DNA of 64,000 nt from Alphaproteobacteria bacterium (GTDB lineage: Bacteria > Pseudomonadota > Alphaproteobacteria > MPNO01 > UBA830): the NCBI GenBank assembly GCA_965243135.1, contig OZ251539.1:2176001-2240000 (forward strand), read 5' to 3'. A program made the position numbers and the translations under genes. Numbering within the stretch: position 1 is the stretch's first letter; each line of letters starts with the position of its first letter. Below are positions 13,035-56,600 of this stretch, piece by piece. The notes beneath the pieces were generated by a model. It saw nothing but the letters and a program-made list of their open reading frames with translations, did no database searches and was not told the DNA's origin.

Positions 13035-14225
<1,191 letters not shown>

Positions 14226-29190: not shown

Positions 29191-30381
<1,191 letters not shown>

Positions 30382-30783: not shown

Positions 30784-31530
30784 ATGCGGGGCAAGCGAAA
30801 AATCAGAGGCGGCGCGCAGCGGTCGCGATCGCCGGAAAACGGCCCCGCATGGCTCTTCGGCAGGCACGCGGTCGCGGCGGCGCTGGCGAATCCGGCGCGG
30901 CGGCGGCGGCGGCTCCTCGCGACCGCCGAGGGGGCCGCGCGACTCCCGGCCGCGGACGCGGAAATCGTCGAGCGCCCGGTCCTCGAAGCCGCGCTGCCGG
31001 CGGGGGCCGTGCATCAGGGCGTGGCGCTGCTGGCCGACCCGCTGCCGGAGGTTCGTCTCGCCGACGTCGCGGCGCGGTCGCCTGAGCGAGCCGCGATGGT
31101 GGCGCTCGACCAGGTTACCGATCCGCGCAACGTCGGCGCGGTGCTGCGGTCGGCCGGCGCCTTCGGGGCGTCCGCCGTGATCGTCGCCGACCGCCATGCG
31201 CCGGAGGCGACGGGAACGTTGGCCAAGGCGGCGTCCGGCGCGCTGGAAACGGTGCCGCTGGCGCGGGCGGGAAATTTGGCGCGGGCGTTGCGAACGCTGA
31301 AGGAGGCGGGCTTCTGGATCGTCGGGCTGGACGCCGAAGCCCCGCAGGATCTGGCCGATCCGCCGGCGCGCTGCGCGCTGGTTCTCGGCGCGGAAGGAAC
31401 CGGCTTGCGGCGGCTGACGCGCGAAACCTGCGACCTGACGGCGCGCGTCGCCGGCGCGGGAGGAAGCCTCAACGTCTCGGCGACCGCTGCGGTCGCGCTT
31501 TACGAGTGGTCGACGCGAGGCGGGCGGTAA
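30784..31530 (+). CDS. rlmB: SpoU/TrmH-family 23S rRNA Gm2251 methyltransferase
   Basis: WLFGRHAV..AL.NP, HQGVAL, LDQVTDPRNVGAVLRSA, LVLGAEG.GL, SLNVS; usual neighbour of tRNA-Tyr in alphaproteobacteria. Confidence 0.9.
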   Translation: MRGKRKIRGGAQRSRSPENGPAWLFGRHAVAAALANPARRRRRLLATAEGAARLPAADAEIVERPVLEAALPAGAVHQGVALLADPLPEVRLADVAARSPERAAMVALDQVTDPRNVGAVLRSAGAFGASAVIVADRHAPEATGTLAKAASGALETVPLARAGNLARALRTLKEAGFWIVGLDAEAPQDLADPPARCALVLGAEGTGLRRLTRETCDLTARVAGAGGSLNVSATAAVALYEWSTRGGR

Positions 31531-31689
31531 CGAAGAACGACCGGGCGGCGACTGCGCGGCTCCGGTCAAGCTCCGGGGCGGCAGCCAGGTTCCGGGACGA
31601 ACCGCTTGCGCAGTTCGGGCGCGTCAGAGCGTTTCCGAAGCCTTCCCTGGCCTGTTCTCCGCATCTTTCGCTTCAGGCGGCCCACACCG

Positions 31690-31925
31690 CCGCCTCGACC
31701 TTCGATCCGGTCGACATTCGCCGTCGGCGACGGACCTGTTCGTGGCCGCGCCGGAGGAGCTGCTCGATCACGTCCGAGGCTGGGCTCTGGATAACGATCC
31801 CGAACGCGGTTTCCGCCCGCCGCGCCCTTGAGCGCGACCTGCTCGTCGTCCTCGACGAGATGCCGCGGCTCGCCGACCCCGACTCGTTCGCGCTGCGGAA
31901 GCGGGCTGCCGCCGACGCCTGAAAC
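31690..31925 (+). pseudogene. fragment of VirD4/TraG-like coupling protein
   Basis: Frameshifted STFDPVDI..TDLFVAAPEELLDHVRGW / LWITIPNAV..RDLLVVLDEMPRL (Walker-B-like), joined by deletion to LADPDSFALRKRAA tail. Confidence 0.5.
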
Positions 31926-31948
31926 TGCGGCGGGACAGGAGCCAAGCC

Positions 31949-32180
31949 CTGCCTGTCCCCCACAAATCGATACTGGACTTCTGGGAGCCGATTCGCTACG
32001 GTGCCCTGCATGGAGTTCCGGAATCAAGTCAGTCTTCGGAGCGACGGCTGCGGGAGGTGAGTGGGGTCAGTCGCAACCAATTAGCTGTTGCGCGGCGTTC
32101 GGGTTCCGGGACGCCCGCGGTCGCTTGCAACGCATGACCTGCCTGAAGGCTTTGGCCGTTCTGGAGGCGGAAGGGCACAT
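31949..32180 (+). mobile_element. remnant left end of IS4 (IS50-like)/DUF4338-type element
   Basis: CTGCCTGTCCCCCACAAAT resembles the IS50 outside end; followed by broken ORF ..CAAFGFRDARGRLQRMTCLKALAVLEAEGH, similar to the DUF4338 N-terminus at 63150-63290. Confidence 0.4.
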
Positions 32181-32429
32181 GCCGACGGCGCTCGGCCCGC
32201 TTCGAAGGCCGGCACCTGAAACGCCGGCGCCGGACGTCCCTCGGAACGCGTCGACCCGGCGTCGGAAACTCGGGAACGGAATCGCCGGACAGAGGTTCGT
32301 CAGCTGCGTTCCGCGCCGGGTCCCGGGCGCTTCTTGCGCACGTTTCCCGGTTCTCAAGGAGACGCTCTCCACCTGGCTCCGGCGGACGGGCGCAACCGGC
32401 AAGGCTGTCGCCGGCCCGCAGGCGGCCGA
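32181..32429. repeat. dispersed ~230-bp repeat, copy 1 (downstream part of VirD4-tail module)
   Basis: GGCCCGCTTCGAAGGCCGG..CCTGAAACG..GGACGTCCCTCGGAACGC...CTGGCTCCGGCGGACGGGCG recurs at ~34476-34700 and ~36385-36591. Confidence 0.92.
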
Positions 32430-32564
32430 GCGCCCTCGCGCCGGTCGTTGCGAGGCCGAGCCGCAGCATGCGCGCCGGGGCGTTTTCGGCAAGCGACGCG
32501 ACTGCGGCGGCGGAACGACGACCGCGCTTTCAGGAGGGGGACCTCCGCGAAACGACCGCGCGGC

Positions 32565-32712
32565 AACGCCGCCGCGCGCCCGGAGGGACGGCCGCCGGGG
32601 AACAAGTCACGCGACGCTCCCTTGAAACGCCGCCGCGCGCCCGGAGGGACGTCGGTCCGCGCCCACGCCAGCGCCTGCCCAGCGGCAACGCCGCCGCGCG
32701 CCTGGAGGGACG
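32565..32712. repeat. three 26-bp direct repeats at exact 61-bp period with unique 35-bp spacers (CRISPR-like)
   Basis: AACGCCGCCGCGCGCC(C/T)GGAGGGACG at 32565, 32626 and 32687; degenerate copy near 32514-32542. Confidence 0.8.
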
Positions 32713-32750
32713 GCTAGAATCGCGCCACGTCCGGAGGTTTGAAATTAGGG

Positions 32751-32780
32751 TTAACTTCCCCCCCCCCCCCCGGCTATACT
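32751..32780 (+). promoter_or_regulatory. putative promoter with C14 tract in the spacer
   Basis: TTAACT (32751-56), 18-bp spacer containing C14 (32758-32771), TATACT (32775-80), upstream of ATG 32813. Confidence 0.55.
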
Positions 32781-32812
32781 CATCTCCGAAACTTCAGGAA
32801 AGGGTATTCGTT

Positions 32813-33199
32813 ATGACAGACGCGGCAATGCCCAGCCCGGACCGCATGCTCGACGCGTACCGGAAGGTGATCCCCTTCGCGCAGGCCTATCGCGAGGACG
32901 CGGAGTTCCGCTCCCGGGTGGACGAGGATCCGAAGTCCGTCATGACCGAGCATTACTTCGACGTGCCGCCCGGCGTGGAAGTGCGCATTACGGAAGACAC
33001 GGACGACACCTTCCACTTCGTCCTGCCGCCCGACCCGAACGTCGCCCTGTCGGACGAAGCGCTCGGCATGGTCGCCGGCGGCAAGTCGGCGAGCACGATC
33101 GGAAGCGCCGGCTCCGCCAGTACGGTAAGCACCGTATGCACCACCGCGAGCTGCGCGGCAAGCGCCAGCTCCCTGGGCTCCGCGGGCACCTCGGGATAA
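32813..33199 (+). CDS. NHLP-leader (proteusin-type) RiPP precursor 1
   Basis: DAEFRSRVDEDPKSV...PPGVEVRITEDTDDTFHFVLPPDP..LSDEALGMVAGG, then core KSASTIGSAGSASTVSTVCTTASCAASASSLGSAGTSG. Confidence 0.88.
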   Translation: MTDAAMPSPDRMLDAYRKVIPFAQAYREDAEFRSRVDEDPKSVMTEHYFDVPPGVEVRITEDTDDTFHFVLPPDPNVALSDEALGMVAGGKSASTIGSAGSASTVSTVCTTASCAASASSLGSAGTSG

Positions 33200-33261
33200 G
33201 CCGGGAGCCTCGGCGGCCGACCGCTCGACTCGTTGTCCGCAATCAAGAGGAGGATCATACC

Positions 33262-33657
33262 GTGGAATTCACTGACATGACGCCCGAGGCAGTGCGGATG
33301 TACCAATCCAACTTCGCCTCGTTCAGATCGTTGTCCGATCGCTACTGGGAGGACGAGACCCTGCGCGGGCGGATCGACGCCGGGGACGTGAGAGACTTGC
33401 TCCCCGACCTCGGGATCGAGGTCTCTTCCGGCACCGACGTCCGAATCGTGGCCGACAGCGCCGATACGCGCTACCTCGTCCTGCCGCCCGACCCGAACGT
33501 CCCCCTGTCGGACGAGACGCTCGGCATGGTCGCCGGCGGCGGCAAGACCGCCAGCTCCGCCGGAACGGTCGGGACGGCGAGCACCATGGCCTGCTCGTCC
33601 GTGCCGTCTTCGGCCAGTTCCGCCGGCACGGCGGGATCGGTCGGCACCGCCTCATAA
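33262..33657 (+). CDS. NHLP-leader RiPP precursor 2
   Basis: RBS AGGAGG, GTG start; RYWEDETLRGRI...DVRIVADSADTRYLVLPPDP..LSDETLGMVAGG, then core GKTASSAGTVGTASTMACSSVPSSASSAGTAGSVGTAS. Confidence 0.88.
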   Translation: MEFTDMTPEAVRMYQSNFASFRSLSDRYWEDETLRGRIDAGDVRDLLPDLGIEVSSGTDVRIVADSADTRYLVLPPDPNVPLSDETLGMVAGGGKTASSAGTVGTASTMACSSVPSSASSAGTAGSVGTAS

Positions 33658-33671
33658 GCAGGAACTTGATC

Positions 33672-34031
33672 ATGGAAATTCATGCGAGCGACTACTTGAC
33701 GAAAGGAACCTACCTGAAGGACGTTCTCGATCCGGGATTTCGAGAACAGATGCAGGAGGCTCCAAACGAGGCCTTGACGTCATGGGGCATAGATCTCCCC
33801 CCCGACGTCGATGTCCGCGTTCATGTGAACACGGACGACACCTTTTATCTGGCATTCCCCCCGGACCCGAACGTCGCCCTGTCGGACGAGGCGCTGGGCA
33901 TGGTCGCTGGCGGCAAGACGGCGAGCACGATCGGAAGCGCCGGTTCCGCCAGTACGTTGGGATCCATACCCAGCACCGCCAGCACCGGGGGAAGCGCGTC
34001 GTCGATGGCATCTTTGGCCTGCGCGAGTTAA
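33672..34031 (+). CDS. NHLP-leader RiPP precursor 3
   Basis: DPGFREQMQEAPNEAL..WGIDLPPDVDVRVHVNTDDTFYLAFPPDP..LSDEALGMVAGG, then core KTASTIGSAGSASTLGSIPSTASTGGSASSMASLACAS. Confidence 0.88.
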   Translation: MEIHASDYLTKGTYLKDVLDPGFREQMQEAPNEALTSWGIDLPPDVDVRVHVNTDDTFYLAFPPDPNVALSDEALGMVAGGKTASTIGSAGSASTLGSIPSTASTGGSASSMASLACAS

Positions 34032-34120
34032 GCGCAGGATCTGCCTCCTCCTTTCTCCAGGCGCCGCTCAGCGGGCGGCTCCTGGGCGCTCGGGCGTCGG
34101 GAAAAGAGCGCGGCGGTTTA

Positions 34121-34700
34121 ACGAGCAGTACGTCGTCGCGACCGCGAAGGACATGCCGCGGGACGCGCTCCACCTCCGCCACGCGCGCTACCGGGCGCGG
34201 CCGGATTCGCGGCGGCTCGCCGACCCCAACCCGTTCGCGCTGCGGAAGCGGGCTGCTGCCGGCGGCGCTCGGCCCGCTTCCAGCAATCCCCGCTAAGGCG
34301 GCCGCATGTCTGGAAGGTGCGCCGAGAAGGCGAAATTACCAATGGACAAGCCGCCGCGACATAAGAAAATCCTTCATTCGATGGCAAATCGCGCCGAATT
34401 ATCCAGAAAAATCTACGAAAAATTTTTCTGAAACCCCATATTTTCCAAGGATTAGAGCCTTAGCGGGAATTGCTGGCCCGCTTCGAAGGCCGGCGCCTGA
34501 AACGTCGGCGCCGGACGTCCCTCGGAACGCGTCGACCCGGCGTCGGAAACTCAGGAACGGAATCGCCGGGCGGAGGTTCGCGAGCTGCGTTCCGCGCCGG
34601 GTCCCGGGCGCTTCTTGCACGCGTTTCCCGGTTCTCGAGGAGACGCTCTCCGCCTGGCTCCGGCGGACGGGCGAAGCTGGCAAGGCTGTCGCCGGGCTGC
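34121..34700. repeat. VirD4-tail + downstream repeat module, copy 2 (interrupted by MITE)
   Basis: Encodes EQYVVATAKDMPRDALHLRHARY.ARPDSRRLADPNPFALRKRAA, then the 230-bp repeat. Confidence 0.9.
34281..34475. mobile_element. 195-bp MITE related to the IS at 42485-44133
   Basis: TIRs CAGCAATCCCCGCTAAGG / CCTTAGCGGGAATTGCTG; 9-bp TSD GCCCGCTTC (34272-80, 34476-84); the other repeat copies show the empty site. Confidence 0.92.
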
Positions 34701-34731
34701 AGCGGCCTGCGCTCTGCGCGTTGGCCCGCAG

Positions 34732-34846
34732 GCGGCCGACCGCTCGACTCGTTGTCCGCAAGGAGGATCGTACCATGGAATATACCGACATGACGCCCGA
34801 GGCAGTGCGGAAGTACCAATCGCCTCGTTCAGATCGTTGTCCGATC
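34732..34846 (+). pseudogene. truncated duplicate of NHLP precursor 2 5' region
   Basis: Matches ~33213-33340 including the RBS; ATG 34775 MEYTDMTPEAVRKYQS, then a 7-bp deletion and loss of homology. Confidence 0.85.
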
Positions 34847-35064
34847 ACTGCCGGGGCCGGTCCGAACCGCGCAGCCGGACGGCGAAGCGTTGAGCCATGC
34901 CTCCGCCCCCGTGCCCCCTCCCGCCCCGAAGCGGCGGAGGCTGCGACGCCGCCCAGCGGCCTCGCCTTCGCAAGCGGAGTCTCTGCACTTGCAGGTGGCC
35001 GACCCCGCACCGCCCATGGTATGATGCCAAGCGCACCGCCCCCGGCCCCTGGAGGACTTGCACC

Positions 35065-35529
35065 GTGACCCCGCACGACCTGATACAGACCGCCCGCCGC
35101 CTGACAGAATCCGGCGCGGTGCAGCCCACGCAAGCCGACCTGCGCCGCGCCGTGAGCACGGCGTACTACGCGCTGTTCCATTGCCTGGCTGGCGCCGCCG
35201 CCGACCTGCTCACCGGCAGCGGCAGCCATAGCCCGGAATGGCACCAAGTGTACCGTGCGCTCGAGCACGGAAAGGCCAAGCGCGCGTGTCGGCAGCAAGG
35301 GGCGATGCGCACCTTTCCAACGCAAATCCACAGCTTCGCCAAGGCGTTCGCCGACTTGCAGGGCGCACGGCACGAAGCGGACTACACGCTTGAAGGCCAG
35401 TATCTCAAGCCGAACGTTCTTGCGATAATCAATACAGCCGAGGACGCAATCAACAAGTTCGAGCAAGCCGACATCCGGTACCGGCGCAGCTTCGCTATTC
35501 ACGTGCTGTTCAAGCGGCGCCAGCCATAG
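35065..35529 (+). CDS. HEPN-domain protein
   Basis: GTG start with GGAGG RBS; LRRAVSTAYYALFH and LQGARHEADY motifs. Confidence 0.8.
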   Translation: MTPHDLIQTARRLTESGAVQPTQADLRRAVSTAYYALFHCLAGAAADLLTGSGSHSPEWHQVYRALEHGKAKRACRQQGAMRTFPTQIHSFAKAFADLQGARHEADYTLEGQYLKPNVLAIINTAEDAINKFEQADIRYRRSFAIHVLFKRRQP

Positions 35530-35539
35530 GAGGTCCGAA

Positions 35540-35836
35540 ATGGATGAACAACAGCTACGCGAGATTGCCGAGGCAGCCTTTAAGCGCCAGTTCGGCGACA
35601 TCGAAATCGTCGGAATCAACATCCGGCAGAGGCTCGACCACGACGACGATCCCGTCGTGGACGTGGACATCATCTACGACGACGAGGAAGGGCAGGTGGC
35701 CGGCCGCGGCTACTTGGGTGTCATGTCGGAAGTCGTCGACAAGACGTGGTACGAGGGGAAGGACGATCTCGGCTATCCTTTGGTCCACCTCCTCCTCAGG
35801 TCCGGCATCGAGCAGGACGACCCGACGACGGTCTGA
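35540..35836 (+). CDS. small acidic partner of HEPN protein (possible degenerate MNT-like antitoxin)
   Basis: AGGAGG RBS, 98 aa, DHDDDPVVDVDIIYD; directly downstream of the HEPN gene. Confidence 0.65.
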   Translation: MDEQQLREIAEAAFKRQFGDIEIVGINIRQRLDHDDDPVVDVDIIYDDEEGQVAGRGYLGVMSEVVDKTWYEGKDDLGYPLVHLLLRSGIEQDDPTTV

Positions 35837-36190: not shown

Positions 36191-36591
36191 CCGTGAAGGA
36201 ACGGCTGGTGACGCCGGACGACCTCATGACCATGGGACCCGCGAGCAATACGTCGTCGCAACCGCGAAGGACATGCCGCGGAACGCGATCCACCTCCGCC
36301 ACGCGCGCTAACTGGGCGCGGCCGGATTCGTGGCGGCTCGCCGACCCCAACCCGTTCGCGCTGTGGAAGCGGGCTGCTGTCGGCGCTCGGCCCGCTTCGA
36401 AGGCCGGTGCCTGAAACGTCGGCGCCGGACGTCCCTCGGAACGCCTTGACCCGGCGTCGGAAACTCGGGAACGGAATCGCCGGGCAGAGGTTTGCGAGCT
36501 GCGTTCCGCGCCGGGTTCCGGGCGCTTCTTGCACGCGCTTCCCGGTTCTCGAGGAGACGCTCTCCACCTGGCTCCGGCGGACGGGCGAAGC
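36191..36591. repeat. VirD4-tail + downstream repeat module, copy 3 (uninterrupted)
   Basis: VKERLVTPDDLMTMGP/EQYVVATAKDMPRNAIHLRHAR/WARPDSWRLADPNPFALWKRAA..KAGA stop, then the repeat. Confidence 0.9.
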
Positions 36592-36609
36592 CGCCGGAAC
36601 GCCGCCAGG

Positions 36610-36871: not shown

Positions 36872-38247
36872 TGTCAAGAACATTTTGAACTGACCGGATT
36901 ATGTACCAAATTAATTGACCGCTTCCGTTGTGGTGGTTGGGCCTGTGGGGAAGTGGTCAGGCGCGAAGCGGCTGTTCACTTATCCACAGGCCTCCAGAGG
37001 ATCGCGTCGAAGCGGGTCACGCGGCCTGCCGGGTTGCGGTTTCGAACGGAGCCCCGTCGGCCCGGTAGAGGGCAAGGCGTCTGGGGCCGTGGAAGACGGC
37101 AAGGGTGTGGTCGGGGTATTCGTGGACCCGGACCCTGGCCTTGACGTAGTGGTGACGGTGGCGATCGGCCGGGATTTGCAGAGTGCGTCCCTTGTACCGC
37201 ACCGTGTTGTCGTTCGAGACGATCCGCTCCTCGTGGACGCAGAGGATGTCGTCCAGGCCGCCGGCGAAGGGCACGAAGGCCGACCCCTCGACCTCGGGCG
37301 GGGTCGCGAAGCGCCGGTTGTGGTCCGGCAGGTAGACCTCCTTGAGGAAGCGGTTGGCCTCGGCCATGTCGGCGATGCCGGCGAGCCTGAGTTCCTGGGG
37401 CAGGCGCTTCTGCAGGGTGCCGAACATCCGCTCCGAGCGCCCCCGGGCCTCGGGCGAGTAGGCGGCGACGTGCTCGACGCCGAGCTGGCGAAGGGCGCGC
37501 CCGACTTGGGTCGGGTTGTCCTTGTCGACCTTGCCGCCGGCTTCGGGCGTGTGGAAGTAGTGGCTGCCGCGGTCGGTGTAGAACGAGCAGAACAGCCCGC
37601 GCACGCCGACCACCTCGCGAAGCGCCTGGAAAGTCGACATGGTGCCTTCCTCGGCGACGAAGAAGGCCGAGTAAATCTCGCTGGTGGCGTCGTCCATGGT
37701 GACGATCAGGTCCCACTGCCGACCGGACACCCACTCGTGGCGCGAGCCGTCCTGGTGCAGCGCCGGGCAGCGCACGCCGCGGGCGCTTGCGCCGATGGGC
37801 GCCGCGGCGCGGCGCGGCCCGCGTGCGGCCATGGGCCTGCAAGGTCAGCCGGACCCAGTTGTAGCTGCGCCGGACGCCATGGCAGGCGACCAGCTTCTCG
37901 TGAAAGTGCCTGGCGTTGAAGTCCCAGTACCGGGTGTCGAACAATTCCAGAACCTGCGCCACCTCGTCTACGTCGGCCCGGCGCGCCGAGACCCGGCCCA
38001 AGCGGCGGTCGTACAACCCCTCCGCGCCCTCCGCCTCGTCGCGCCAGCGCCGGAAGGTGCGTTCCGAAACGCCCAGTATCTCCGCCGCCTCGCCTTGGCT
38101 CAGCACACGGGTGCGACCGTATACCTCTTCGAACTTCATCAGTCCCTGTCGTTGTTCCGTCCGCCGCCACCTCCTTTGGTCTGGAAGCCTTCTAAATCCG
38201 GACAGATCATTTGGTACATGGACCGGACATATCATCTGTTACTGACA
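36872..38247 (-). mobile_element. IS1202-family (IS481-related) insertion sequence, transposase frameshifted
   Basis: Ends TGTCAAG.../...CTGACA sharing ATGTACCAAAT; 18-bp TSD TGCCGTGAACCCGCATGA (36854-71, 38248-65). Confidence 0.88.
37017..38170 (-). pseudogene. IS1202-family DDE transposase (frameshift near 37770)
   Basis: HTH EAAEILGVSERTFRRW; LHQDGSRHEW, MDDATSE, YTDRGSHY, SPEARGRSERMFGTLQKRL. Confidence 0.88.
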
Positions 38248-38621: not shown

Positions 38622-38915
38622 ATGAAACAGAAGATTCTGGAACGGGCGCGCAGCACCGTGGAAGGCTTCCTGCACCGGCAGTCCACCGCGCTCACGGTGC
38701 TTTCCGTGGACCCGGAAGTGGATGGCTACGGCGACGATCTCCTCTTGATACGCTTCACCTATGACGACGGAAACGACGCCGAGGGGCTTCCCGACTCCCC
38801 GGCGATGCGTGAGTTGATAGATCGCTTGTGCACCGAACTCCAGGATGCGGACATCGAGGCGTCTCCCGTCGTCTCGTTCACCGCCGAATCGGAGGTCGGG
38901 AACGAGCCGGAGTAG
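38622..38915 (+). CDS. small acidic partner protein upstream of second HEPN gene
   Basis: 97 aa, DGYGDDLLLIRFTYD resembles 35540-35836; GGAG RBS. Confidence 0.65.
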   Translation: MKQKILERARSTVEGFLHRQSTALTVLSVDPEVDGYGDDLLLIRFTYDDGNDAEGLPDSPAMRELIDRLCTELQDADIEASPVVSFTAESEVGNEPE

Positions 38916-38921
38916 CGCATC

Positions 38922-39343
38922 ATGGAACCGGAGCACCTCTTGCGGATGGCCTCCGACCTTGTGGAGGCCACCACCGGTCGACCGCGGCGGGCGGATTTGT
39001 GCCGCGCCGTCAGCGCCGCGTACTACGCTTTGTTCCACTGTCTGGCGCGCAGCTGCGCGGACAGTTTGGCAGGCCAAGCCGGCACGGTCGGCAACCGTGG
39101 CGGCGCGTGTACCGGGCGCTGGAGCACAGGCAGGCCAGGACGCGTTGCGAGAACGTGCCGTCCTCGTTTCCCGAAGGCGTGCGGCAATTCGGGCAGACGT
39201 TCGCAGCGCTGCAGGGCAGACGCCACCTGGCGGACTACGACCCGGACTACCCGTTCAGCAAATCCAACGTGATCACGGACGTCAACAACGTGCGAACATC
39301 GACCGATCAGCCGTCACGGATCGGACCACGCCGTGCGCCTTGA
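38922..39343 (+). pseudogene. HEPN-domain protein, frameshifted near 39095
   Basis: MEPEHLL..LCRAVSAAYYALFHCLA continues in another frame as WRRVYRALEH..LQGRRHLADYDP; paralog of 35065-35529. Confidence 0.82.
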
Positions 39344-48411: not shown

Positions 48412-49821
48412 GGGCGTTCCTAATCGAAAAGCGTTTTCCCGGCGCCCGTTCGGAAGGCTGGAGAGAAAGCTGCTTCTGCCGGAGCCGTCAGAGGATCTTT
48501 CTCACGCCCCGAGGTCATTGCGAGCAACTGCGCGTAGCCTTCCTCGCCCAACAGATTGCGGGCGTGCAAACGGCACTCCCTCCAGGACTCCTCGGGGTCC
48601 TGGCCGAGCTGCCAGTCGAAAAAGCGCGGACCGAGGCTATCTCCGACCTTCCGGACTTCCCTCGCGCGTTCGTCGCGGCCGAGACCGTAATCCGCCAGGC
48701 GCAGGGATTCGGGAAGCATCCAGCCGTCGCCGTCGTTTTGCCCGCAGAATGCGGCGATACCCTCGTCGACGTCTCCACGTTCGGAAATCTTCCCTTGGAG
48801 ATCGTCGAACGCTACGAGCGTCAGAACGGTGTGGCGCAGCTCGGGAGGCTGGTCCTTGTTGACTCGCCAGAATCCCTTCGCCGCCAATTCGTCGGCCTTC
48901 GACAGCCTGTCCGCTTCGCCGACGGGCAAGTCGCAATCCCGGAGAATGTAACGCAGATCCTCGACGGAAAGTCCGAAAAGCACCGCAACGATGGCGTCCA
49001 GCATGCAATTCAGCCTCAGTCTCTCGTGCGGCGTCGAAGCCCATTGCTCCCTCCAGGCGGAATCCCGCTCCCGCAGATAGATCCAGAGCGGCGAGAACAC
49101 CTCGTGATTCGCCGACATCCGGGCGACCAATCGCGTCAGAATTAACCTGGTTTCCGCCGTGAGCGTTCGCGAATCGAGCAACGGAAACTCCTCGACAACG
49201 GCATAGTTGAGATGAAGGTCTCCGATGCGCAACCGCGCCACGAAATCGAGGACGAACGAGCCCAGCTGGGCTTGAAGGGGCAAGACGTCGGGCATGTGGC
49301 CCGGCGCCAGGCACGGGGCGGCATGGACCGCCGGCGTCGGCGGAGTGAGTGCGCTGACCATCGTTCGCCGGTTAACCGCCTTCGAGATGTCCTTGAAAAG
49401 CAGTCGCGCCAACCAGGGCGGGCGGTCTTCGGTTCGGTCCCGGAAATCGAGTTCGCTCATCAAGTATTCCGGCTCTATGGTCTTCTTCGACGGATCGATC
49501 GGCTTCCATACTGCGCTCCGTCCCTTGCCCCGAACCCATCCCGAGCTGGAGAAATCGAACAGGCTGAACACCTTGGCGCCGTACACGGGCACCGCCGTTC
49601 CTTCGATCGCTTCTTCATCGATCCAGTGCTCGCCGTCTCGCGAGAAAACGATTCCTTCGGCATTATTCGCGCGTCCGGCGGGCATCGTGCCGGACAAAGC
49701 CTTCCAATTGCCCTTGATCCAGCGGTTGTACTCGTCGGGACGGTATCCCTCCTCCTCCCATTTTGGTCGCGGAGGGAAAAGTTTCGAGTCGCCAGTGGTA
49801 TCGAACTCCCTCGTATAACTT

Positions 49822-50063
49822 CAGACCTCCTGACATCGCGTAAATTCAATTTGCCAGCAGGGGGCCCTCGAACGCCAGTTTCAGCCCGGTGCCGAGGTAG
49901 GCATGGCCTTCGCGAGTGACCATGGCACAAAGTTCCCGAAGCGCCGTGTTGAAGCGGGATTGGGACACGGCGCTCTCCAGAAAGTGGTACATTCTAATTT
50001 ACGACGAACTGGGGAAAAATCAAGCAAAATCTTCCAGTTACGCATACCATGTCAGGAGGTCTG
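49822..50063. mobile_element. 242-bp MITE inside the methylase gene
   Basis: Perfect 15-bp TIR CAGACCTCCTGACAT / ATGTCAGGAGGTCTG; 5-bp TSD AACTT (49817-21, 50064-68); removal restores frame WNVSYTREFD. Confidence 0.92.
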
Positions 50064-52261
50064 AACTTACGTTCCAGCTTCCGGGACCATTTTCGCCGAG
50101 GAGCGCGGAATTTCCGTAGATCTTTTCGAGCAATTCCAGATCCCACGAGGACTCGATCTCCAGGATGGACTGCGAACGCGGAGAAAGGCGGTCTATCTGA
50201 TCCCGGGCGTAATCGGCGGCGCAAAGTTCCGGCCGCTCCCAATCCTCGAGGCGACGCCGCATGAACGCCGTCCGAACGGTTTGCGTCTTTCCGCCTTTTT
50301 CGGCGATGACTGCATTAAATTTCATAGCTCTGTGGATGTCGAAAATACCGTCGCGATTCTCGAAGCCGAATATCCATTCCCACTTCCAACGATTAAGGAA
50401 AAGCTGGCGAAGATCGCCGGTGCCATGGTCGGAGTAGAGGCCCGAGGGCACGATGAATCCGATGCGCCCTCCGTCCTTCAGCAAGGCATGCGCTTGCTCG
50501 AGGAACAGCTTGTACCGGTTGAGGTCGGCGGACCCTTGGTGCCGGAAGGGGCGTCCACCGCGAACGTAGCCCGCGCTCTTCGAACGGCTGCGCCGCCAGT
50601 GCGCATGCAATTCCCCGTTCCGAAGGCCCTTCACGATCGTAAAGCGCCTGTCGCTTTTCGCGTTCATGGAGGGGTCGCCGAAGGCGCTGTCGCGGTGCTT
50701 CACGAAGTTGGACAACGCACGAAAACCGGCGTTGTACGTCAACCATTCCCTTTCGATCACTTCGTCTTTTTTGAAATAGAGAGTTTGATACCGCAGCGCC
50801 TCCTGCTTGCCGTAGGAGGGATATAGCGGGTCTCTGTTCGAGAAGAATTCCCTGGAATACGGTTTCGCGGTATCCCACGGCGGATTGCCGAGCATGGCGT
50901 CGAAGCCGCTTTTTCCGTCCCGGAAAACGTCTGGGAACTCGATCTCCCAATGAAAAAATCGCTCGCGGGACGCTACCCGGGCGGCAATCTCCCAAGTCGC
51001 CTCCGGCGGATCGGCGAGCGTCGACGGAAGCGGCGCGGCGGCGAGTTCGTCAGCGGGCCAGAACCAGCAGGCGCACCAAAGGTCCATCGCCTTCGAGAGC
51101 GTGCGGTAGGCGTCGGAATCGAGGATGTCGTCGTGATATGCCCGGGCGCGCTCGTCCGTACGGTGGACGGGCAGGGCGTGAAGGTGGGTCAGCGTGTCGA
51201 GCGCGTTGTCGTGAACGGAAATCGCTTTTTCCTGCAGGTCTTCCGAAAACAGCGTGGGGCCCGACAGGAAGACTGCGAGATCGGGCGTCAGCTTGTCTTT
51301 CACGAACGCCTTTATGGCCCTGGCGCGCACATCTTTCTCGAAATGGACCCCGTTCGAATGGGTCTTGTCGCCGCCCTCCCGGTTTTTCCAGGCCATGACC
51401 GGATAGTGCTGAAACTGGTCGAACCACGCGCCGACGAGGCTGTTGCCGCACTTGATCTTGTGATCGAGGAAAGAAAATGGCAGCGCGCGATCCATGGTCT
51501 CGACCCAAAGCGCCAGCTTGCAAAGCTCGACGGCCAGCGGATCGAGATCGACGCCGTAGAGGCAACGCTCGACCACGTGCCTGCGGAGCACGGCCTTCAG
51601 CCGCGGTTCGAAGAGATCGTCGTCCGGCGGACAAGGCAGCAGTTCCTCGCAAAGGCCTTCGCCGACGTCGCCGGTCAACGGCCCGACAACGGAACTGTCT
51701 CCGCGGGGAGCGATCCTTCCATGGTGGTGGAGCGATGCGTACAGGGCTTCGGTCAGAAACCGCAACGCCGCCAGGGGGAACGAGCCGGAACCGCACGCCG
51801 GGTCGCAGATCTTCAAATCGAGGATTTCTTCCGGGAGCCTCGGAATCCACTCGTCGGTCGCGGCCGCCCCGGCGGCTACCGGTTCGTAAGCCAGCGGCAG
51901 AAGAGTGCGCTGCACGGTGGGAACCGCGAGGCCGGGCCGGGTATAGAACGAGCCGCTGCCCTTGCGCGTTCCGCCCCAGCGCACCAGATACCACTCGCCG
52001 GGCAAAACGACGCGAACGATCAGCTGACGGGCTTTTCGGAAAACGGTTTCTTCATACTGCAAACGCTTCTCGGGGGTCATCTTTCCGCGCGGTTTCCGGA
52101 CGAGGCCGCCGGCCCCGACTGCGCGAACGGCCCAGGCTTCGGCTCGCAGGCGGGCGTTGTGCCGCTCGTCGCCTTCCGGGATTTCCGCACTCTCGTTCGA
52201 CTCTTCCTCTGCTTCTCCTTCTACATCTTCCTCCTCGACCTGCGGTTCACCAAACGCCCTA

Positions 52262-52277
52262 CCCCCCCCCCCCCCCC
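52262..52277 (-). repeat. G16 homopolymer in methylase coding strand
   Basis: 16 C on + strand; G14 or G17 would restore the reading frame. Confidence 0.9.
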
Positions 52278-53683
52278 GTCATCGCTGGTATCCTTCAGGG
52301 CCTTCAACAGGTTGTTGAGCGCCGAATCGTCCATCTCCTCCAGCCGGCTGAGCGGCAGCGCGGGATGGTTCCCGACCGCGAGGAAAATGATCGGGTTGCC
52401 GGGCGGCGCGGTCCGCAACTCGAAATCGAGCAAGCCCTCGTAAAGGATGCCGATGTACTCGCTGGAGAGGTCGGAAAAATCCACCGGCGCCGGAATCCAG
52501 GTGCGCGACCAGCCTTGGCGAACCTTTATCCGCGTCCGCGTGATCCGCTCCAGAATGCGATGGACCTCGGCGTCGGCCATCACCTCCCGGTCGAAGCAGG
52601 CGGTCTCGAAAACCGAAAGCGCGCGGGAGAGCCCGTCGGAGGAATCGGGTTCGCCCGAGGCGAAAAGCGCGCCGCCGTAGGCTGGAACGGGCAAGTCCGG
52701 ATGGTGCGACCCGTCGCGAATCAGACGAAAGAGGGCGAGCACCCGCGGCCAGGCGCTCCACGACCGGGCGAGGCGGTTTCCGCCGCGAGCCGCGGTCTTT
52801 TCGAGGGACTCCAGCAAGCCGGTCAGGCCGTAGCCGCTGTGATAGAGGTCGTTGTCCCGCGGCAGCAAATCGCGCGATTCGGCAAAGAGCACGATCACCA
52901 TCCGCATGACGACGCGCACGGCGGCCCGATAGATCTCGGCCGGGTCGGCGCAGCGTTCTTTCAGGGCTTGTCCGTGGCTCCGCACGAGCGCCTCGACGGC
53001 TTCCCGGACGCGCTCGCCCAAGACCTGCGAGAGTTCCGCCTGTCCCTTGCGGCTGTCGAGAATCGCCTGGAGCAACGGGGCCGGGCCGTCGCTGCCGACC
53101 GGGATCCACGCGCCGGGGGACAGCAGAGTGCGCAGGGCCGCGACCTGGTCCGACAGCTTCCCCTCTTCGAACCACAGGTCCGCGTCCCATTCGCACCAGG
53201 CATCGAAATCGAGGCCGGCGAAAACGAGGCGCCACTGCCGGCCGTTGGTGACGACGGCCAGCTTCTCGCGCCCGCCCCGCAACCACTGGAGAACGCGGCT
53301 CGTCGCCCTGCGGCCGCGGCCGACGCCCACGCGTTTCTCGCGGTCGAGAAAGACGGGCAGAACGCCGCCCCGGTCGCCGGTCCACAGATGGTCGGGTTTG
53401 ATCCTCCCGCCGGCAACGGCGGCGCGGCCCTGCTCGGCGGGGACGCCGCTTCCCCGCCGCCAGCCGCTTGCAGTAAATCCGCAGACTCTCTCGAGCGCGA
53501 ACGCGACGAATTCCGGCGTTGACGCGCGGTCGTCGAGCATCACGGCGCTTCGCCGGCGCAATTCGCTCTCGACGGCCGGCGGCAGGGCGTCCGGCGCGAA
53601 ACGCGCGATCTCCTGAAGCCTTTGAGGATCGAGAAGCAGGCCCCCGTGGCGCAGCCGTTCCCAACCTGGCAATTCCGTCCGGT

Positions 53684-56600
53684 TCAAGGCGCTTCTCCGG
53701 CAAGGCGGAATTCCACGACGACCGGAAAGACCTGCGCCTCGCCCGTCATCGAAAAGCGATTGGGCAGAACGCGGGCCAGAATTCGCTCGCGCTCCTTTTC
53801 GAGTTGTCCGCGCACCTCCTCGAAATTGCGTCGCCGCCGGGCGCGTTCCGCCTCCTTTTCCTCTATGGAACGGTCGATGCGTCCCAGGCGGTTCGCCTCG
53901 TCGAAGAGAGTTCCTTGGCGCTTCTCCTCCTTCAGCCTCTCGATCTCGCGTTCGAGTCTGGCGAGGGTGGTTTCCGCGATCAACGCCGAGACCTCGCCCT
54001 GACGGCTGCGGTAACGCTCGTCCTCCTCGCGCCGCGCGCGGTCTCCGTCGCGCTCCAATTGAGTTCGCAGGCCGGCGGTCAGCGATGCCGCATGCCGGCG
54101 AACGAAAGCTTTGAGCTCGGGTTCCACTTCGCAGAAAATTTCCTGGGCCCGCCGCTGCGGTTCCTCGCCCCGGGCAGGCTGCGCTCCGCGGAGTTCGCGG
54201 GCAGGGCAGTGCGGGAGGGGACCGCCGAGCGCGCCTCCGGTGACCGGAAAGCGTATCGTTCTCACCCAGTGGTGATAGGTTTCGCGCAGATCGTTGACGG
54301 CCAGTTCCTCCAGACTGAGAAGCACGGCGGCATCGACGCCCGCCGGCAGTTCTCCGATGCTTACCGTCCAGCGGGATACTTCGTCGCCGGTTCCCGGAAA
54401 CCGGCGGCGGCTGAGCGAAACGAGTGCTTTCTGCAGCATCGGGTGGGACAAGTGGATCAGGCGCGTGTCGGGACGCGGCGCGAAAATCTTCCGCCTGCCG
54501 GCATCTTCAAGAAAAGGTTCCACGCCGAAAGCCAGCCGTACCACCGGCCCCTTGCTCCTCCCGTCGCCCGTAGTCGCGCGCAGCGAGTCGTCGATAACGT
54601 CGCTCCATTCCGGCAGGCCGGGATTGACGATCCGGCAGGTGCCGTCATGGTCCGAGCGGTCGAGTTGCGGCCGGCCTGCGCGTATCGCCATCGCGGCTTC
54701 GAGGGTGTCGCGTACGGCGGCGGGGTCGAGATCCACCTCGGCGGCGACGTTGCGCAGATCCCGGATGCCCGCCTCCGCGCTTGCCGCATCGGTCGCAACG
54801 GCGGAATCGGCGTCGAGCGCGGCCCGACCGCGGGCCAGTTCGACGCTCCGCTCGAGATGGTGCTGGACCTGAACGAGTTCCTCGCCTTCGACCAGACGCC
54901 GATGCGCCGCTTCGTCGAACAGCTCGTTGACCGACCCCAGATCCTCGCGGATTTCGTCGGACTTGCGGATGACGTGCGCCAGAAACTGGAGATCCTGATC
55001 CTGGTCGCTGACGAAATGGTGAATCGTCACGTCGCGCGCCTGGCCGTGGCGGTCCAGCCGCCCGTTCCGCTGCTCCAGCCTGGACGGGTTCCAGGGACAG
55101 TCGTAGTGAAGCATGTACCGTGCGGTGCGCTGAAGGTTGAGGCCCTCGGCCGCCGCGTCCGTGGCGACGAGTATCCGCACCTCGCGGGAGGGATCGTTGA
55201 AGGCGGCCTTCACGAGGTCGCGCTGGAATTCGTCCATGCCGCCGAAGAGCGTGAGGATTCGTTCCTCCTGGTAGCGCTCGCGGAGGCGCCGCACTATGTA
55301 GTCGAGCGTCGTCTTGTACTCCGTGAAGACGACAAGCCGTTCGTCGTCGCGCCAGCCGCCGCCTCGCCGGAGCAACTTTTCCACGAGGCCGCACAAGGCG
55401 TCGAACCGGGCGTCTTCCGCCGGGTCGCGGTCTTCCGCGAGGCCCAGCCGGTCCACCGCGAGGTCGATCTCGTCGATCTCCCGCGCAAGCTCCGTTCCGA
55501 ACGACTTGAGCCATGCGCCGACCACGGTCGAGGCCGTGGACTCGCGCAACTGGGTCTCGCGGTCGTCGGGGATTTCCTGGTGCAGGGCGCGCGCTGCGGC
55601 TACCACTTCGCTGTCCGCCGCAGGCTGGGTCTGCTCCAGACCGTCCTTGCACCTGCGCCACGACTCGGCGAACGCAACGGGGCAACTGAGCAGCCGCTTG
55701 CCGAGAACTTCGATCGCGAAACTGCCCGACCGCCGCCGCGCATTCTCTCCGCGGGCGATCTGCGACCGCACCCCGGTCCGGAAAGCGGCGAACGCCCGGC
55801 TCACCGACGCTTCGGCAGGGGACAGACTCAGCTCGACCGCCCGCGGCGGCATGCGCGTGCAGAATTTGGGCGGATCGGTGCGGTCGTTGATCTCGCTCTT
55901 GAGGCGCCGGAGAACCACCTGCTTGATGCGCTCTTTCTGCGCGGGATTCAGTTCGCCGGTCTGGCTGAATCGCAGCGGATCCAGAATCTCCAGAAGCCCC
56001 GTGAAGGAACGCGTATGGCCGTTGTGCGGGGTGGCGCTGAGAAAGATGCGATGCTCGAATTGCGGAGCGACGAGGCGCAGCATGCGGCAAAGATCGCTGT
56101 CGTCGCCGAACGGCGAGGGCATGAGGTTGTGGCACTCGTCGACGATCAGGAGATCCCAGGGCAGATGCGGCGACCCCTCCGGCGTTCGGCAGGCGGCGAG
56201 GAATTGTTCGAGGACGTCGTCCTGCCGCAGGTAATGATAGGAGGAGATGATGCGGCTGTACGATCGCCAGGGATTGGCGTCGAGACCGAGCCGCTTTCGC
56301 AGCTTGTCGGTCTCGGAACGGTCGACGAGGTTGAAGTGAAGAGAGAACTTGTCCCACAGCTCGTCCCGCTGCCATTGCAGGCGCAGCGAAGCCGGCGTCA
56401 GCACCAGCACCCGCTGGATCCGCCGGCGGATCAGAAGTTCGCTCAGGATCAGACCGGCCTCGACGGTCTTCCCCAGGCCGACGTCGTCGGCGATGAGCAG
56501 GTTGACGCGCGGCATGCGCAACGCCTTGAGCAACGGCACGAGCTGGTAATCCTCGACCTGGATGGCCCCGTGGAACGGGCTCGACACCGGCAACCGGTCG

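What the first reader, a model, noticed from the sequence alone, without database searches (positions are those of the whole stretch)
32813..34031. Stand-alone trio of NHLP/proteusin-type RiPP precursors with no maturation genes in the window
Seen: three tandem 119-131-aa ORFs with nitrile-hydratase-like leaders ending LSDExLGMVAGG, each followed by a core of exactly 38 aa made almost entirely of S/T/A/G with 1-2 Cys. No YcaO, radical SAM, LanM, halogenase or C39-peptidase transporter is recognisable in the ~30 kb on either side. Known: NHLP leaders with a GG cleavage site mark proteusins and azol(in)e-containing RiPPs, which normally cluster with their enzymes. Inference: a mobile precursor-only cassette matured in trans, yielding probably uncharacterised, heavily modified peptides. 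This is the best natural-product candidate in the window.
Basis: partly seen in the sequence, partly recalled or inferred. Interest (0 to 1): 0.78.

Follow-up and report, generated by a model that had tools for sequence, protein, structure and literature searches.

The report
Spare copy of peptide-antibiotic precursor genes
Three small genes for precursors of heavily modified peptides are an intact spare copy of the three genes that head the matching enzyme cluster 1.57 million bases away in the same genome, a known arrangement for this kind of peptide.

Summary
Three tandem ORFs (128, 131 and 119 aa) carry nitrile-hydratase-like (NHLP) leaders ending in VAGG. Each has a 38-aa core rich in Ser, Thr, Ala and Gly. 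No maturation gene lies in the window.

The trio is not an orphan. It is a 92%-identical duplicate, from promoter to 3' flank, of three precursor genes at 3.781 Mb. Those genes sit directly upstream of a fused YcaO cyclodehydratase, a SagB-type dehydrogenase, a DUF4135 (LanM-type) dehydratase without a recognisable zinc cyclase, a PoyD-like radical-SAM enzyme and an NHLP-specific C39-peptidase export system. This is the published "dehydrazole" proteusin architecture.

The window copy looks functional:
- The reading frames are intact and of identical length.
- dN/dS is 0.28-0.68.
- It carries fewer derived amino-acid changes than the cluster copy (9 against 21).
- It keeps a 12-nt promoter box that occurs 12 times in the genome, 11 of them upstream of NHLP genes.

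Related sponge-associated genomes show the same plan of one enzyme set and many remote precursor arrays. Maturation in trans is therefore well supported. "Mobile cassette" is not supported.

The verdict is a new member of a known kind. The unexpected part is the shared promoter box followed by a poly-C tract of variable length.

The parts
32560..32714 (+). 61-nt tandem repeat, 2.5 copies, just upstream of the promoter box. The cluster copy has about one unit.
   Evidence: TRF; the alignment shows a gap of about 120 nt in the cluster copy.
32741..32752 (+). Conserved 12-nt box GAAATTAGGGTT shared by the NHLP precursor promoters of this genome and of relatives.
   Evidence: 12 exact copies in the genome against a mean of 0.09 (maximum 2) for 300 letter permutations. 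11 of the 12 lie 89-172 nt upstream of an NHLP leader match. The box also lies upstream of precursors in loci L005, L006, L007, L013, L014, L016, L017, L022 and L024.
32751..32780 (+). Sigma-70-like promoter TTAACT-18 nt-TATACT. Its spacer is a run of 14 C (32758-32771).
   Evidence: 2 promoter-like sites found against 0.2 expected. The cluster copy has 13 C and a 16-nt spacer.
32813..33199 (+). Precursor A, 128 aa. Leader 32813-33082, 38-aa core 33083-33196.
33262..33657 (+). Precursor B, 131 aa, GTG start 7 nt after a GGAGGA ribosome-binding site. Leader 33262-33540, core 33541-33654.
33672..34031 (+). Precursor C, 119 aa. Leader 33672-33914, core 33915-34028.
32442..34122 (+). Full extent of the segmental duplication shared with genome 3781203-3782783. 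It runs from the promoter region to about 90 nt past the stop of C, and in the cluster copy it ends about 70-85 nt before the YcaO start codon.
   Evidence: blastn: 32695-34122 matches 3781345-3782783 at 92.1% over 1441 nt, and 32442-32591 matches 3781203-3781363 at 85.8%. Alignment.
34731..34855 (+). Truncated fourth copy: the A-B intergenic region plus the first 16 or so codons of a B-type precursor.
   Evidence: 84% identity to 33212-33349; translation visible.
32180..32427 (.). Local repeat present three times in the window (also at 34475-34707 and 36375-36593). Twice it directly precedes NHLP sequence.
   Evidence: 3 hits in the genome, all in the window.
34280..34475 (.). MITE-like dispersed repeat directly downstream of the trio.
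   Evidence: 62 blastn hits in the genome, 16 of them covering at least 70% of its length.
36872..38235 (-). IS copy with a helix-turn-helix transposase-like ORF, bounding the repeat tract.
   Evidence: 44 blastn hits, 6 near full length; Pfam HTH_28/HTH_29/HTH_23.

Best explanation
The trio is a complete, lineage-specific duplicate of the transcription unit that heads the genome's single dehydrazole-type proteusin cluster.

Inferred mechanism:
1. The three precursors are transcribed from the shared box-plus-poly-C promoter.
2. Their NHLP leaders are bound by the fused leader-binding/YcaO cyclodehydratase encoded at 3.783 Mb, or by its 96.5%-identical twin at 3.811 Mb.
3. Some Cys, Ser and Thr residues of the core are cyclised to azolines and oxidised to azoles by the SagB-type dehydrogenase.
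4. The DUF4135 enzyme then dehydrates Ser residues. The PoyD-like radical-SAM enzyme and the hydroxylase-like enzymes may add further changes.
5. The C39-peptidase ABC exporter cuts after the GG motif, and the peptide leaves through the HlyD and outer-membrane partners.

Shown here: the identity of the genes, the duplication, the enzyme inventory, the promoter box and the pattern of sequence constraint. Inferred: expression, recognition in trans, and every chemical step.
For: - A paralogous trio lies directly upstream of the YcaO gene and is 92.1% identical over 1441 nt.
- Enzymes by family search: TIGR03604 276.9 bits (cut-off 219) plus TIGR03882; SagB TIGR03605 155.4 bits (cut-off 78.4); DUF4135 221.7 bits; rSAM_PoyD 315.7 bits (cut-off 325, just below); NHLM HlyD 267.9, ABC1 1020.7 and ABC2 843.3 bits, all three above their cut-offs.
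- There is a single copy each of the dehydrogenase, DUF4135, the 233-aa protein and the rSAM enzyme, and two YcaO genes.
- Leader identity between the window and cluster copies is 82 of 90 (A), 90 of 93 (B) and 67 of 81 (C). ORF lengths are identical and there are no stops or frameshifts. dN/dS is 0.28, 0.32 and 0.68.
- Polarised against the L005 and L006 orthologues, 9 amino-acid changes are derived in the window copies and 21 in the cluster copies, with 9 unresolved. For gene C the split is 3 against 16.
- The promoter box is retained.
- The same layout recurs in relatives. All 5 related genomes checked hold one DUF4135 gene beside a YcaO gene. Of 21 related loci, 13 hold NHLP arrays with no modification-enzyme homologue within 10 kb on either side.
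- The published class combines the same parts (PMC10676384: abstract and sections 6, 7 and 12 read).
Against: - There are no expression data.
- The window promoter spacer is 18 nt against 16 nt in the cluster copy, so the window promoter could be weaker or off.
- The trio sits among repeats, IS copies and a truncated sibling copy.
- Gene C has a dN/dS of 0.68. The dN/dS values rest on only 7-22 changed codons per gene.
- Two of the three leaders score below the curated TIGR03793 cut-off.
- Only one conserved Cys is present in the C-terminal domain of the DUF4135 protein. Its fold match to a LanM was weak (E 0.01, model pLDDT 60.5), so the class assignment of that enzyme is incomplete.
Confidence: 0.75

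Rival explanations
1. Relic cassette: a by-product of recombination in a repeat-rich region that is no longer expressed or used and is on its way to decay.
For: The neighbourhood is a mosaic of dispersed repeats and IS copies and holds a truncated fourth copy. The promoter spacer is 2 nt longer than in the cluster copy.
Against: All three frames are intact with unchanged lengths, and dN/dS is below 1. There are fewer derived amino-acid changes than in the cluster-linked copy, 9 against 21. The promoter box, the -10-like hexamer and the ribosome-binding sites are retained.
Confidence: 0.13
2. The trio feeds a different pathway, such as a lanthipeptide (prochlorosin-like) or thiopeptide-like route, and not the YcaO/DUF4135 cluster.
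For: The cores give weak sub-threshold matches to the thiocillin-family model: 16.5 bits for A and 21.5 bits for C, against a cut-off of 25. NHLP and Nif11 leaders also serve LanM systems (PMC2887384, passages read).
Against: No LanB-type dehydratase (PF04738) and no LanC-like domain (PF05147) was found in the genome. Neither search had a positive control that matched. The only DUF4135 gene sits in the YcaO cluster. The leaders are near-identical to those encoded beside that cluster.
Confidence: 0.05
3. An autonomous mobile precursor cassette that moves between genomes.
For: The trio lies beyond the tRNA-Gly, tRNA-Tyr and SpoU genes, at the edge of a variable region with IS copies and a defence island.
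Against: The duplicated segment has no transposase or integrase. It has exactly two copies in the genome. No copy above 72% identity was found in the 20 relatives searched. The order A-B-C at the enzyme cluster is conserved in relatives, which makes the cluster copy the source.
Confidence: 0.04

Closest known systems
Dehydrazoles (carnazolamide, the cca cluster of Chryseobacterium carnipullorum; Pei, Zhu and Nair 2023, PMC10676384)
   Same: An NHLP-leader precursor with a Ser/Thr/Cys-rich core, a YcaO, an azoline dehydrogenase, a DUF4135 dehydratase whose C-terminal domain lacks the zinc site, and a PoyD-like radical-SAM enzyme. The paper notes related clusters mainly in Proteobacteria and Actinobacteria, some with two YcaO genes and several precursors (sections 6 and 12 read).
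   Different: Here the cores hold only 1-2 Cys but 17-18 Ser/Thr. Leader removal is by a C39-ABC exporter at a GG site, not by an S8 protease at an Ala run. No SAM methyltransferase homologue was looked for. Extra genes are present: a 233-aa protein with a 2OG-oxygenase-like lead and Asp/Asn-hydroxylase-like proteins. The precursors are spread over about a dozen remote loci.
Prochlorosins (ProcA precursors with a single ProcM enzyme in marine picocyanobacteria)
   Same: One promiscuous enzyme set serves many precursor genes, most of them dispersed far from the enzyme gene. Leaders are conserved and cores diverse. (Abstract of PMC10783134 seen in a search listing; Haft 2010 passages read; the rest is recalled.)
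   Different: Prochlorosins use Nif11-type leaders and a full LanM with a zinc cyclase that makes lanthionine rings. Here the leaders are NHLP-type and the chemistry is azole formation plus dehydration without a recognisable cyclase.
srp proteusins of sponge microbiomes (Nguyen et al. 2021, as described in bioRxiv 10.1101/2023.06.09.544420, passages read)
   Same: NHLP-type precursors of sponge-associated bacteria, YcaO-dependent azol(in)e formation, and many precursor genes per community.
   Different: srp cores are short and conserved (LCCCW) and end in a brominated Trp made by a halogenase. The cores here have no Trp, and no halogenase was seen in the cluster.
Nostatin A (PMC11583998, abstract read)
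   Same: A proteusin that combines oxazole/thiazole rings with dehydroalanine/dehydrobutyrine residues.
   Different: It comes from a cyanobacterium and also carries a sactionine bond and a modified proline. No comparison of its cluster was made here.

Membership tests
NHLP leader peptide family (TIGR03793) | Leader homologous to the nitrile hydratase alpha subunit and scoring with the family model | tested here: met
   52.9, 35.3 and 47.4 bits against a cut-off of 50.9 (only A passes; E values 2.5e-14 to 7.9e-9). NHase_alpha 29.5, 25.2 and 23.1 bits against 27.2.
NHLP leader peptide family (TIGR03793) | Double-glycine cleavage motif at the end of a leader of about 80-90 aa | tested here: met
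   All three leaders end in GMVAGG at residues 90, 93 and 81.
NHLP leader peptide family (TIGR03793) | Co-occurrence with the NHLP-specific export system (TIGR03794, TIGR03796, TIGR03797) | tested here: met
   Present in the genome at 3.794-3.801 Mb, all three above their cut-offs. Not present in the window.
Dehydrazole-type proteusins | YcaO cyclodehydratase plus azoline dehydrogenase encoded with the precursor | tested here: met
   Met for the paralogous trio at 3.781 Mb. For the window trio the link is by paralogy only.
Dehydrazole-type proteusins | DUF4135 dehydratase fused to a cyclase-like domain that lacks the zinc ligands | tested here: inconclusive
   DUF4135 scores 221.7 bits. The LanM model is matched only over positions 78-704 of 932. 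No LANC_like match was found. The C-terminal 305 aa hold one Cys conserved in 7 of 7 homologues. The fold model is poor (pLDDT 60.5) and its best PDB match is LicM2 at E 0.01.
Dehydrazole-type proteusins | Product with azoles and with dehydroalanines that precede azoles | not testable with these tools
   Needs co-expression and mass spectrometry or NMR.
Proteusins in the strict sense (polytheonamide type) | PoyD-type radical-SAM epimerase acting on the precursor | tested here: inconclusive
   TIGR04517 scores 315.7 bits, below the 325 cut-off. The gene is in the 3.79 Mb cluster. Its activity was not tested.
Class II lanthipeptides (prochlorosin-like) | LanM with a zinc-dependent LanC-type cyclase domain | tested here: not met
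   No PF05147 match in the genome (the control genomes also gave no match, so absence is not proven). The LanM model score of 255.7 bits is below its 304 cut-off and lacks the C-terminal part.
Thiopeptides (thiocillin family, NF033482) | Precursor above the family cut-off and LanB-type dehydratases in the genome | tested here: not met
   16.5 and 21.5 bits against a cut-off of 25. No PF04738 match in the genome (no positive control matched).

The most novel reading that the evidence does not exclude
The NHLP precursor loci of this symbiont and its relatives may form a regulon driven by a shared GAAATTAGGGTT box. The promoter spacer after the box is a hypermutable poly-C tract: 11-16 C at different loci, 12 against 16 C between orthologues with near-identical flanks, and 14 against 13 C between the two trio copies. 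Slipped-strand changes in tract length would switch individual precursor arrays on or off. One enzyme set would then produce a stochastically varying, population-level library of modified peptides. That would be phase variation applied to natural-product diversity, and the remote trio would be one independently switchable unit of it.
Probability: 0.2. Interest if true: 0.75.

Novelty: new member of a known kind. Interest (0 to 1): 0.45.

Why it matters
For natural-product work, the locus adds three distinct cores to a family of about 12 Ser/Thr-rich NHLP precursors. One dehydrazole-type enzyme set in a sponge-associated alphaproteobacterium probably serves them all, which gives a ready substrate panel for a class known so far from one reconstituted example.

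For genome mining, it is a clear case in which a cluster-centred search would miss most of the substrates, while a 12-nt promoter box finds them: 11 of 12 genomic copies mark NHLP genes.

The poly-C promoter spacers raise a testable idea about stochastic control of RiPP repertoires. Two literature searches found nothing on this (10 papers hold the motif, the 9 listed are unrelated; 0 papers).

Tried and rejected
- RNA evidence: no RNA holder was listed for the stretch, so expression is untested.
- Read laying used short assembled contigs only. None spanned the whole stretch, so conservation of the right-hand junction in other samples could not be judged. One contig of a separate study joins the local repeat to the trio's upstream region with 64 nt skipped.
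- A terminator after gene C: no canonical site was found, and the 3' flank folds no better than shuffled sequence (z -0.92).
- Rfam: no match in 31500-35000 at E up to 1.
- Structure of the conserved 233-aa cluster protein: the model was too poor to search (pLDDT 44.7). The ESM Atlas gave only a lead to WelO5 / 2OG-Fe(II) oxygenase-like clusters (0.94-0.97).
- One literature search with loose terms returned only irrelevant papers.
- A complex prediction of YcaO with a window leader was considered and not run. The window and cluster leaders are 83-97% identical, so a pass would not have discriminated between the readings.
- Supplements of PMC10676384 (cluster diagrams and precursor lists) could not be seen. 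They may already list relatives of this cluster.

Full report
**1. The observation**

A lies at 32813-33199 (128 aa), B at 33262-33657 (131 aa, GTG start behind a GGAGGA ribosome-binding site) and C at 33672-34031 (119 aa).

The NHLP leader model TIGR03793 matches all three at E values of 2.5e-14 to 7.9e-9. Only A (52.9 bits) clears the curated cut-off of 50.9; C scores 47.4 and B 35.3. Pfam's nitrile hydratase alpha model gives the same picture.

Each leader ends in GMVAGG and each core is exactly 38 aa. Ser, Thr, Ala and Gly make up 30-31 of the 38 residues, with 2, 1 and 1 Cys.

**2. The window holds no maturation genes**

- Positions 1-30.4 kb carry the ribosomal-protein, rpoBC and tuf operons (read from the translations), followed by tRNA-Trp, tRNA-Gly and tRNA-Tyr and a SpoU methyltransferase.
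- Positions 31.6-38.2 kb are a mosaic of dispersed repeats and an IS copy.
- Positions 40-63 kb form a defence island with DrmD, DrmC, DrmMI-like and DruE-like proteins.
- Genome-wide searches place YcaO and DUF4135 only near 3.78-3.81 Mb.
- None of the 13 cluster proteins has a tblastn match in the window.

**3. What the trio is**

The genome is one contig of 6.10 Mb, 98.8% complete. It has 22 matches to the NHLP leader model. Two of them lie in one ORF that continues through the Cys-rich active-site region and that I read as the true nitrile hydratase alpha subunit.

A second trio lies at 3781462-3782684, directly upstream of a 778-aa YcaO fusion. The window segment 32695-34122 matches 3781345-3782783 at 92.1% over 1441 nt, and a further upstream piece matches at 85.8%. 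The duplication runs from the promoter region to about 90 nt past the stop of C. In the cluster copy it stops about 70-85 nt before the YcaO start codon. It is thus one whole transcription unit and nothing else.

**4. The cluster downstream of the paralogous trio**

- A fused leader-binding/YcaO cyclodehydratase: TIGR03882 plus TIGR03604, 276.9 bits against a cut-off of 219.
- A SagB-type dehydrogenase: 155.4 bits against 78.4.
- An 849-aa DUF4135 protein that matches the LanM model only over positions 78-704 of 932.
- A conserved 233-aa protein of no known family.
- A PoyD-like radical-SAM enzyme: 315.7 bits against 325.
- A further NHLP precursor.
- An Asp/Asn-hydroxylase-like protein.
- The NHLP-specific HlyD, C39-ABC and ABC export proteins, all above their cut-offs.
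- An outer-membrane efflux protein.
- NlpC/P60 proteins.

A second YcaO gene, 96.5% identical to the first, lies 26 kb further on. The dehydrogenase, DUF4135, radical-SAM and 233-aa genes are single-copy.

**5. Comparison with what is known**

Pei, Zhu and Nair (PMC10676384; abstract and sections 6, 7 and 12 read) defined the dehydrazoles as NHLP-led peptides made by three kinds of enzyme: a YcaO, a dehydrogenase, and a DUF4135 dehydratase fused to a cyclase-like domain without zinc ligands. A radical-SAM epimerase is often present too. In their system the YcaO and dehydrogenase act first. [quoted passage not shown]

The parts list here is the same. For the dehydratase I could show three things:
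- Pfam finds no LanC-like domain.
- The C-terminal 305 residues hold a single Cys conserved in 7 of 7 homologues.
- A low-confidence model (pLDDT 60.5) finds a LanM (LicM2) as its best structural match, at only E 0.01.

Membership on that feature is therefore likely but not settled.

Haft and colleagues already noted in 2010 that NHLP precursors form large paralogous families. They also noted that these can lie far from their modification and export genes (PMC2887384, passages read). A remote precursor set is therefore expected for this family.

**6. Is the window copy alive?**

- All three frames are intact and have the same lengths as the cluster copies.
- dN/dS is 0.28 (A), 0.32 (B) and 0.68 (C), on 20, 14 and 33 changed codons respectively. 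The Cys positions are unchanged.
- Using the L005 and L006 orthologues to polarise the differences, 9 amino-acid changes are derived in the window copies and 21 in the cluster copies, with 9 unresolved. For gene C the split is 3 against 16, so the window copy keeps the ancestral leader and core while the cluster-linked copy has diverged. This is the opposite of what a decaying spare copy would show.
- The caveats are the small counts, outgroups only about 79% identical, and the assumed orthology of gene C.

**7. A shared promoter**

Fifty-nine bases upstream of the start of A lies the 12-mer GAAATTAGGGTT (32741-32752). It occurs 12 times in the genome, against a mean of 0.09 and a maximum of 2 for 300 permutations of its letters. 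Eleven of the 12 copies lie 89-172 nt upstream of an NHLP leader match on the same strand. Eleven of the 16 NHLP transcription units have the exact box, and two more have it with 2 mismatches.

The same box stands upstream of NHLP genes in 9 of the 21 related loci.

In the window the box overlaps a sigma-70-like promoter, TTAACT-18 nt-TATACT. That the remote trio keeps this box is the best evidence available here that it is regulated together with the cluster.

**8. The poly-C spacer**

After the box comes a C-rich stretch that is a pure C run at five loci:
- 14 C in the window.
- 13 C in the cluster copy.
- 16, 12 and 11 C at three other NHLP loci.

Coding-strand C runs of 9 or more lie within 400 nt upstream of 5 of the 16 NHLP units. 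About 0.03 would be expected from the genome-wide density of 62 such runs (the expectation is my own arithmetic). The two trio copies are not independent of each other.

The orthologous promoters at genome 4921332 and L016:8143 have near-identical flanks but 12 and 16 C. One assembled contig in one run carries an extra C in the window tract, at depth 18.4 of 118.8. This is weak evidence, because homopolymers are error-prone.

Long C/G runs are frequent elsewhere in this genome too, with 50 of length 11 or more. Several of those precede secreted proteins.

I read the tracts as candidate phase-variable promoter spacers, but nothing here shows switching.

**9. Relatives**

A scan of species-representative genomes found 21 related loci. 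Their titles name uncultured Alphaproteobacteria (most), one Gammaproteobacterium, a Candidatus Porisulfidus and a Vicinamibacterales bacterium.

By enzyme content:
- Four loci carry YcaO, dehydrogenase, DUF4135 and the 233-aa gene beside arrays of 4-5 precursors.
- One carries YcaO, radical-SAM, dehydrogenase and DUF4135.
- One carries DUF4135 with two radical-SAM genes.
- Two carry the radical-SAM gene only.
- Thirteen carry 1-4 NHLP genes with no modification-enzyme homologue within 10 kb on either side.

All 5 of these genomes that I searched whole have one DUF4135 gene next to a YcaO gene. One enzyme set with many remote arrays is thus the rule in this group.

None of the 20 relatives searched holds a close copy of the window trio; the best match is 72% identical over about 300 nt. 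The duplication is therefore specific to this lineage.

The DNA itself is found in runs labelled as sponge metagenomes.

**10. Mobility**

The duplicated 1.7 kb carries no mobility gene. Its right end abuts an internal point of a dispersed repeat. A 230-nt local repeat occurs three times in the window and twice precedes NHLP sequence. A truncated B-type copy lies at 34731-34855.

This is the signature of repeated recombination in a plastic, repeat-laden region next to tRNA genes. It is not the signature of a self-mobile cassette.

**11. Verdict**

Maturation in trans is well supported by the genome. The system is a new member of the dehydrazole-type proteusins, with precursors dispersed as in the prochlorosins. 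The box-plus-poly-C promoter is the one feature I could not find described.

Noticed in passing
Genome-wide; window examples at 32758-32771 and about 52262-52277 (genome 2228262): There are 50 C or G homopolymer runs of 11 nt or more in the 6.1-Mb genome. Several lie just upstream of paralogous secreted proteins of about 450-500 aa. Six belong to one dispersed repeat whose copies carry 12-18 C. This looks like a genome-wide set of length-variable tracts.
   Followed up: partly
window 40601-63021: A defence island on the minus strand holds DrmD (651 bits), DrmC (414 bits), a DruE-like helicase and a separate ORF that matches the DruE C-terminal part. It also holds a type IIG / DrmMI-like methyltransferase whose model is covered by three consecutive ORFs (52224-53687, 50041-52080 and 48423-49697), so that gene may be split or frameshifted.
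   Followed up: partly
window 34897-35836 and 38622-39272: Two similar pairs of small ORFs (210+98 aa and 97+116 aa) with no Pfam family flank the IS copy. Their function is unknown.
   Followed up: no
L005:10874, L006:10878, L007:11350: In relatives, long homopolymer runs also lie inside precursor genes. There are 19 C against 13 C at the 5' end of the third precursor of two closely related genomes, and 14 G within a leader. The 19-C copy has no long in-frame start, so translation-level switching or an assembly error is possible.
   Followed up: no
genome 4921332-4921490 and L016:8143-8300: The second leader type (...LQDEAL.AVAGG) has a 5' untranslated region of about 90 nt that is nearly identical between genomes and contains short hairpin-like repeats. 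It may be a conserved leader RNA.
   Followed up: no
L001:13140-13841 (genome 3789140-3789841): A 233-aa protein is conserved directly after the DUF4135 gene in 5 of 5 closest clusters but has no Pfam or NCBIfam family. The ESM Atlas points to WelO5 / 2OG-Fe(II) oxygenase-like clusters (0.94-0.97). It has a conserved H-x-D motif and later conserved His residues.
   Followed up: partly
genome 182930 and 270978: The twelfth exact promoter box, and a one-mismatch copy with 11 C, precede secreted proteins and not NHLP genes. The box may therefore control more than the precursors.
   Followed up: partly
genome 114437-121261 and 141034-142322: A second NHLP-type export system (C39-ABC 44% identical) lies beside a different NHLP precursor. 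A further precursor lies next to a 95%-identical NlpC/P60 paralogue. Both precursors carry the promoter box.
   Followed up: no
window 30000-30381 and about 13844-14225: The 5' part of tuf is present twice in the window at 98.4% identity. This is the usual pair of tuf genes.
   Followed up: no
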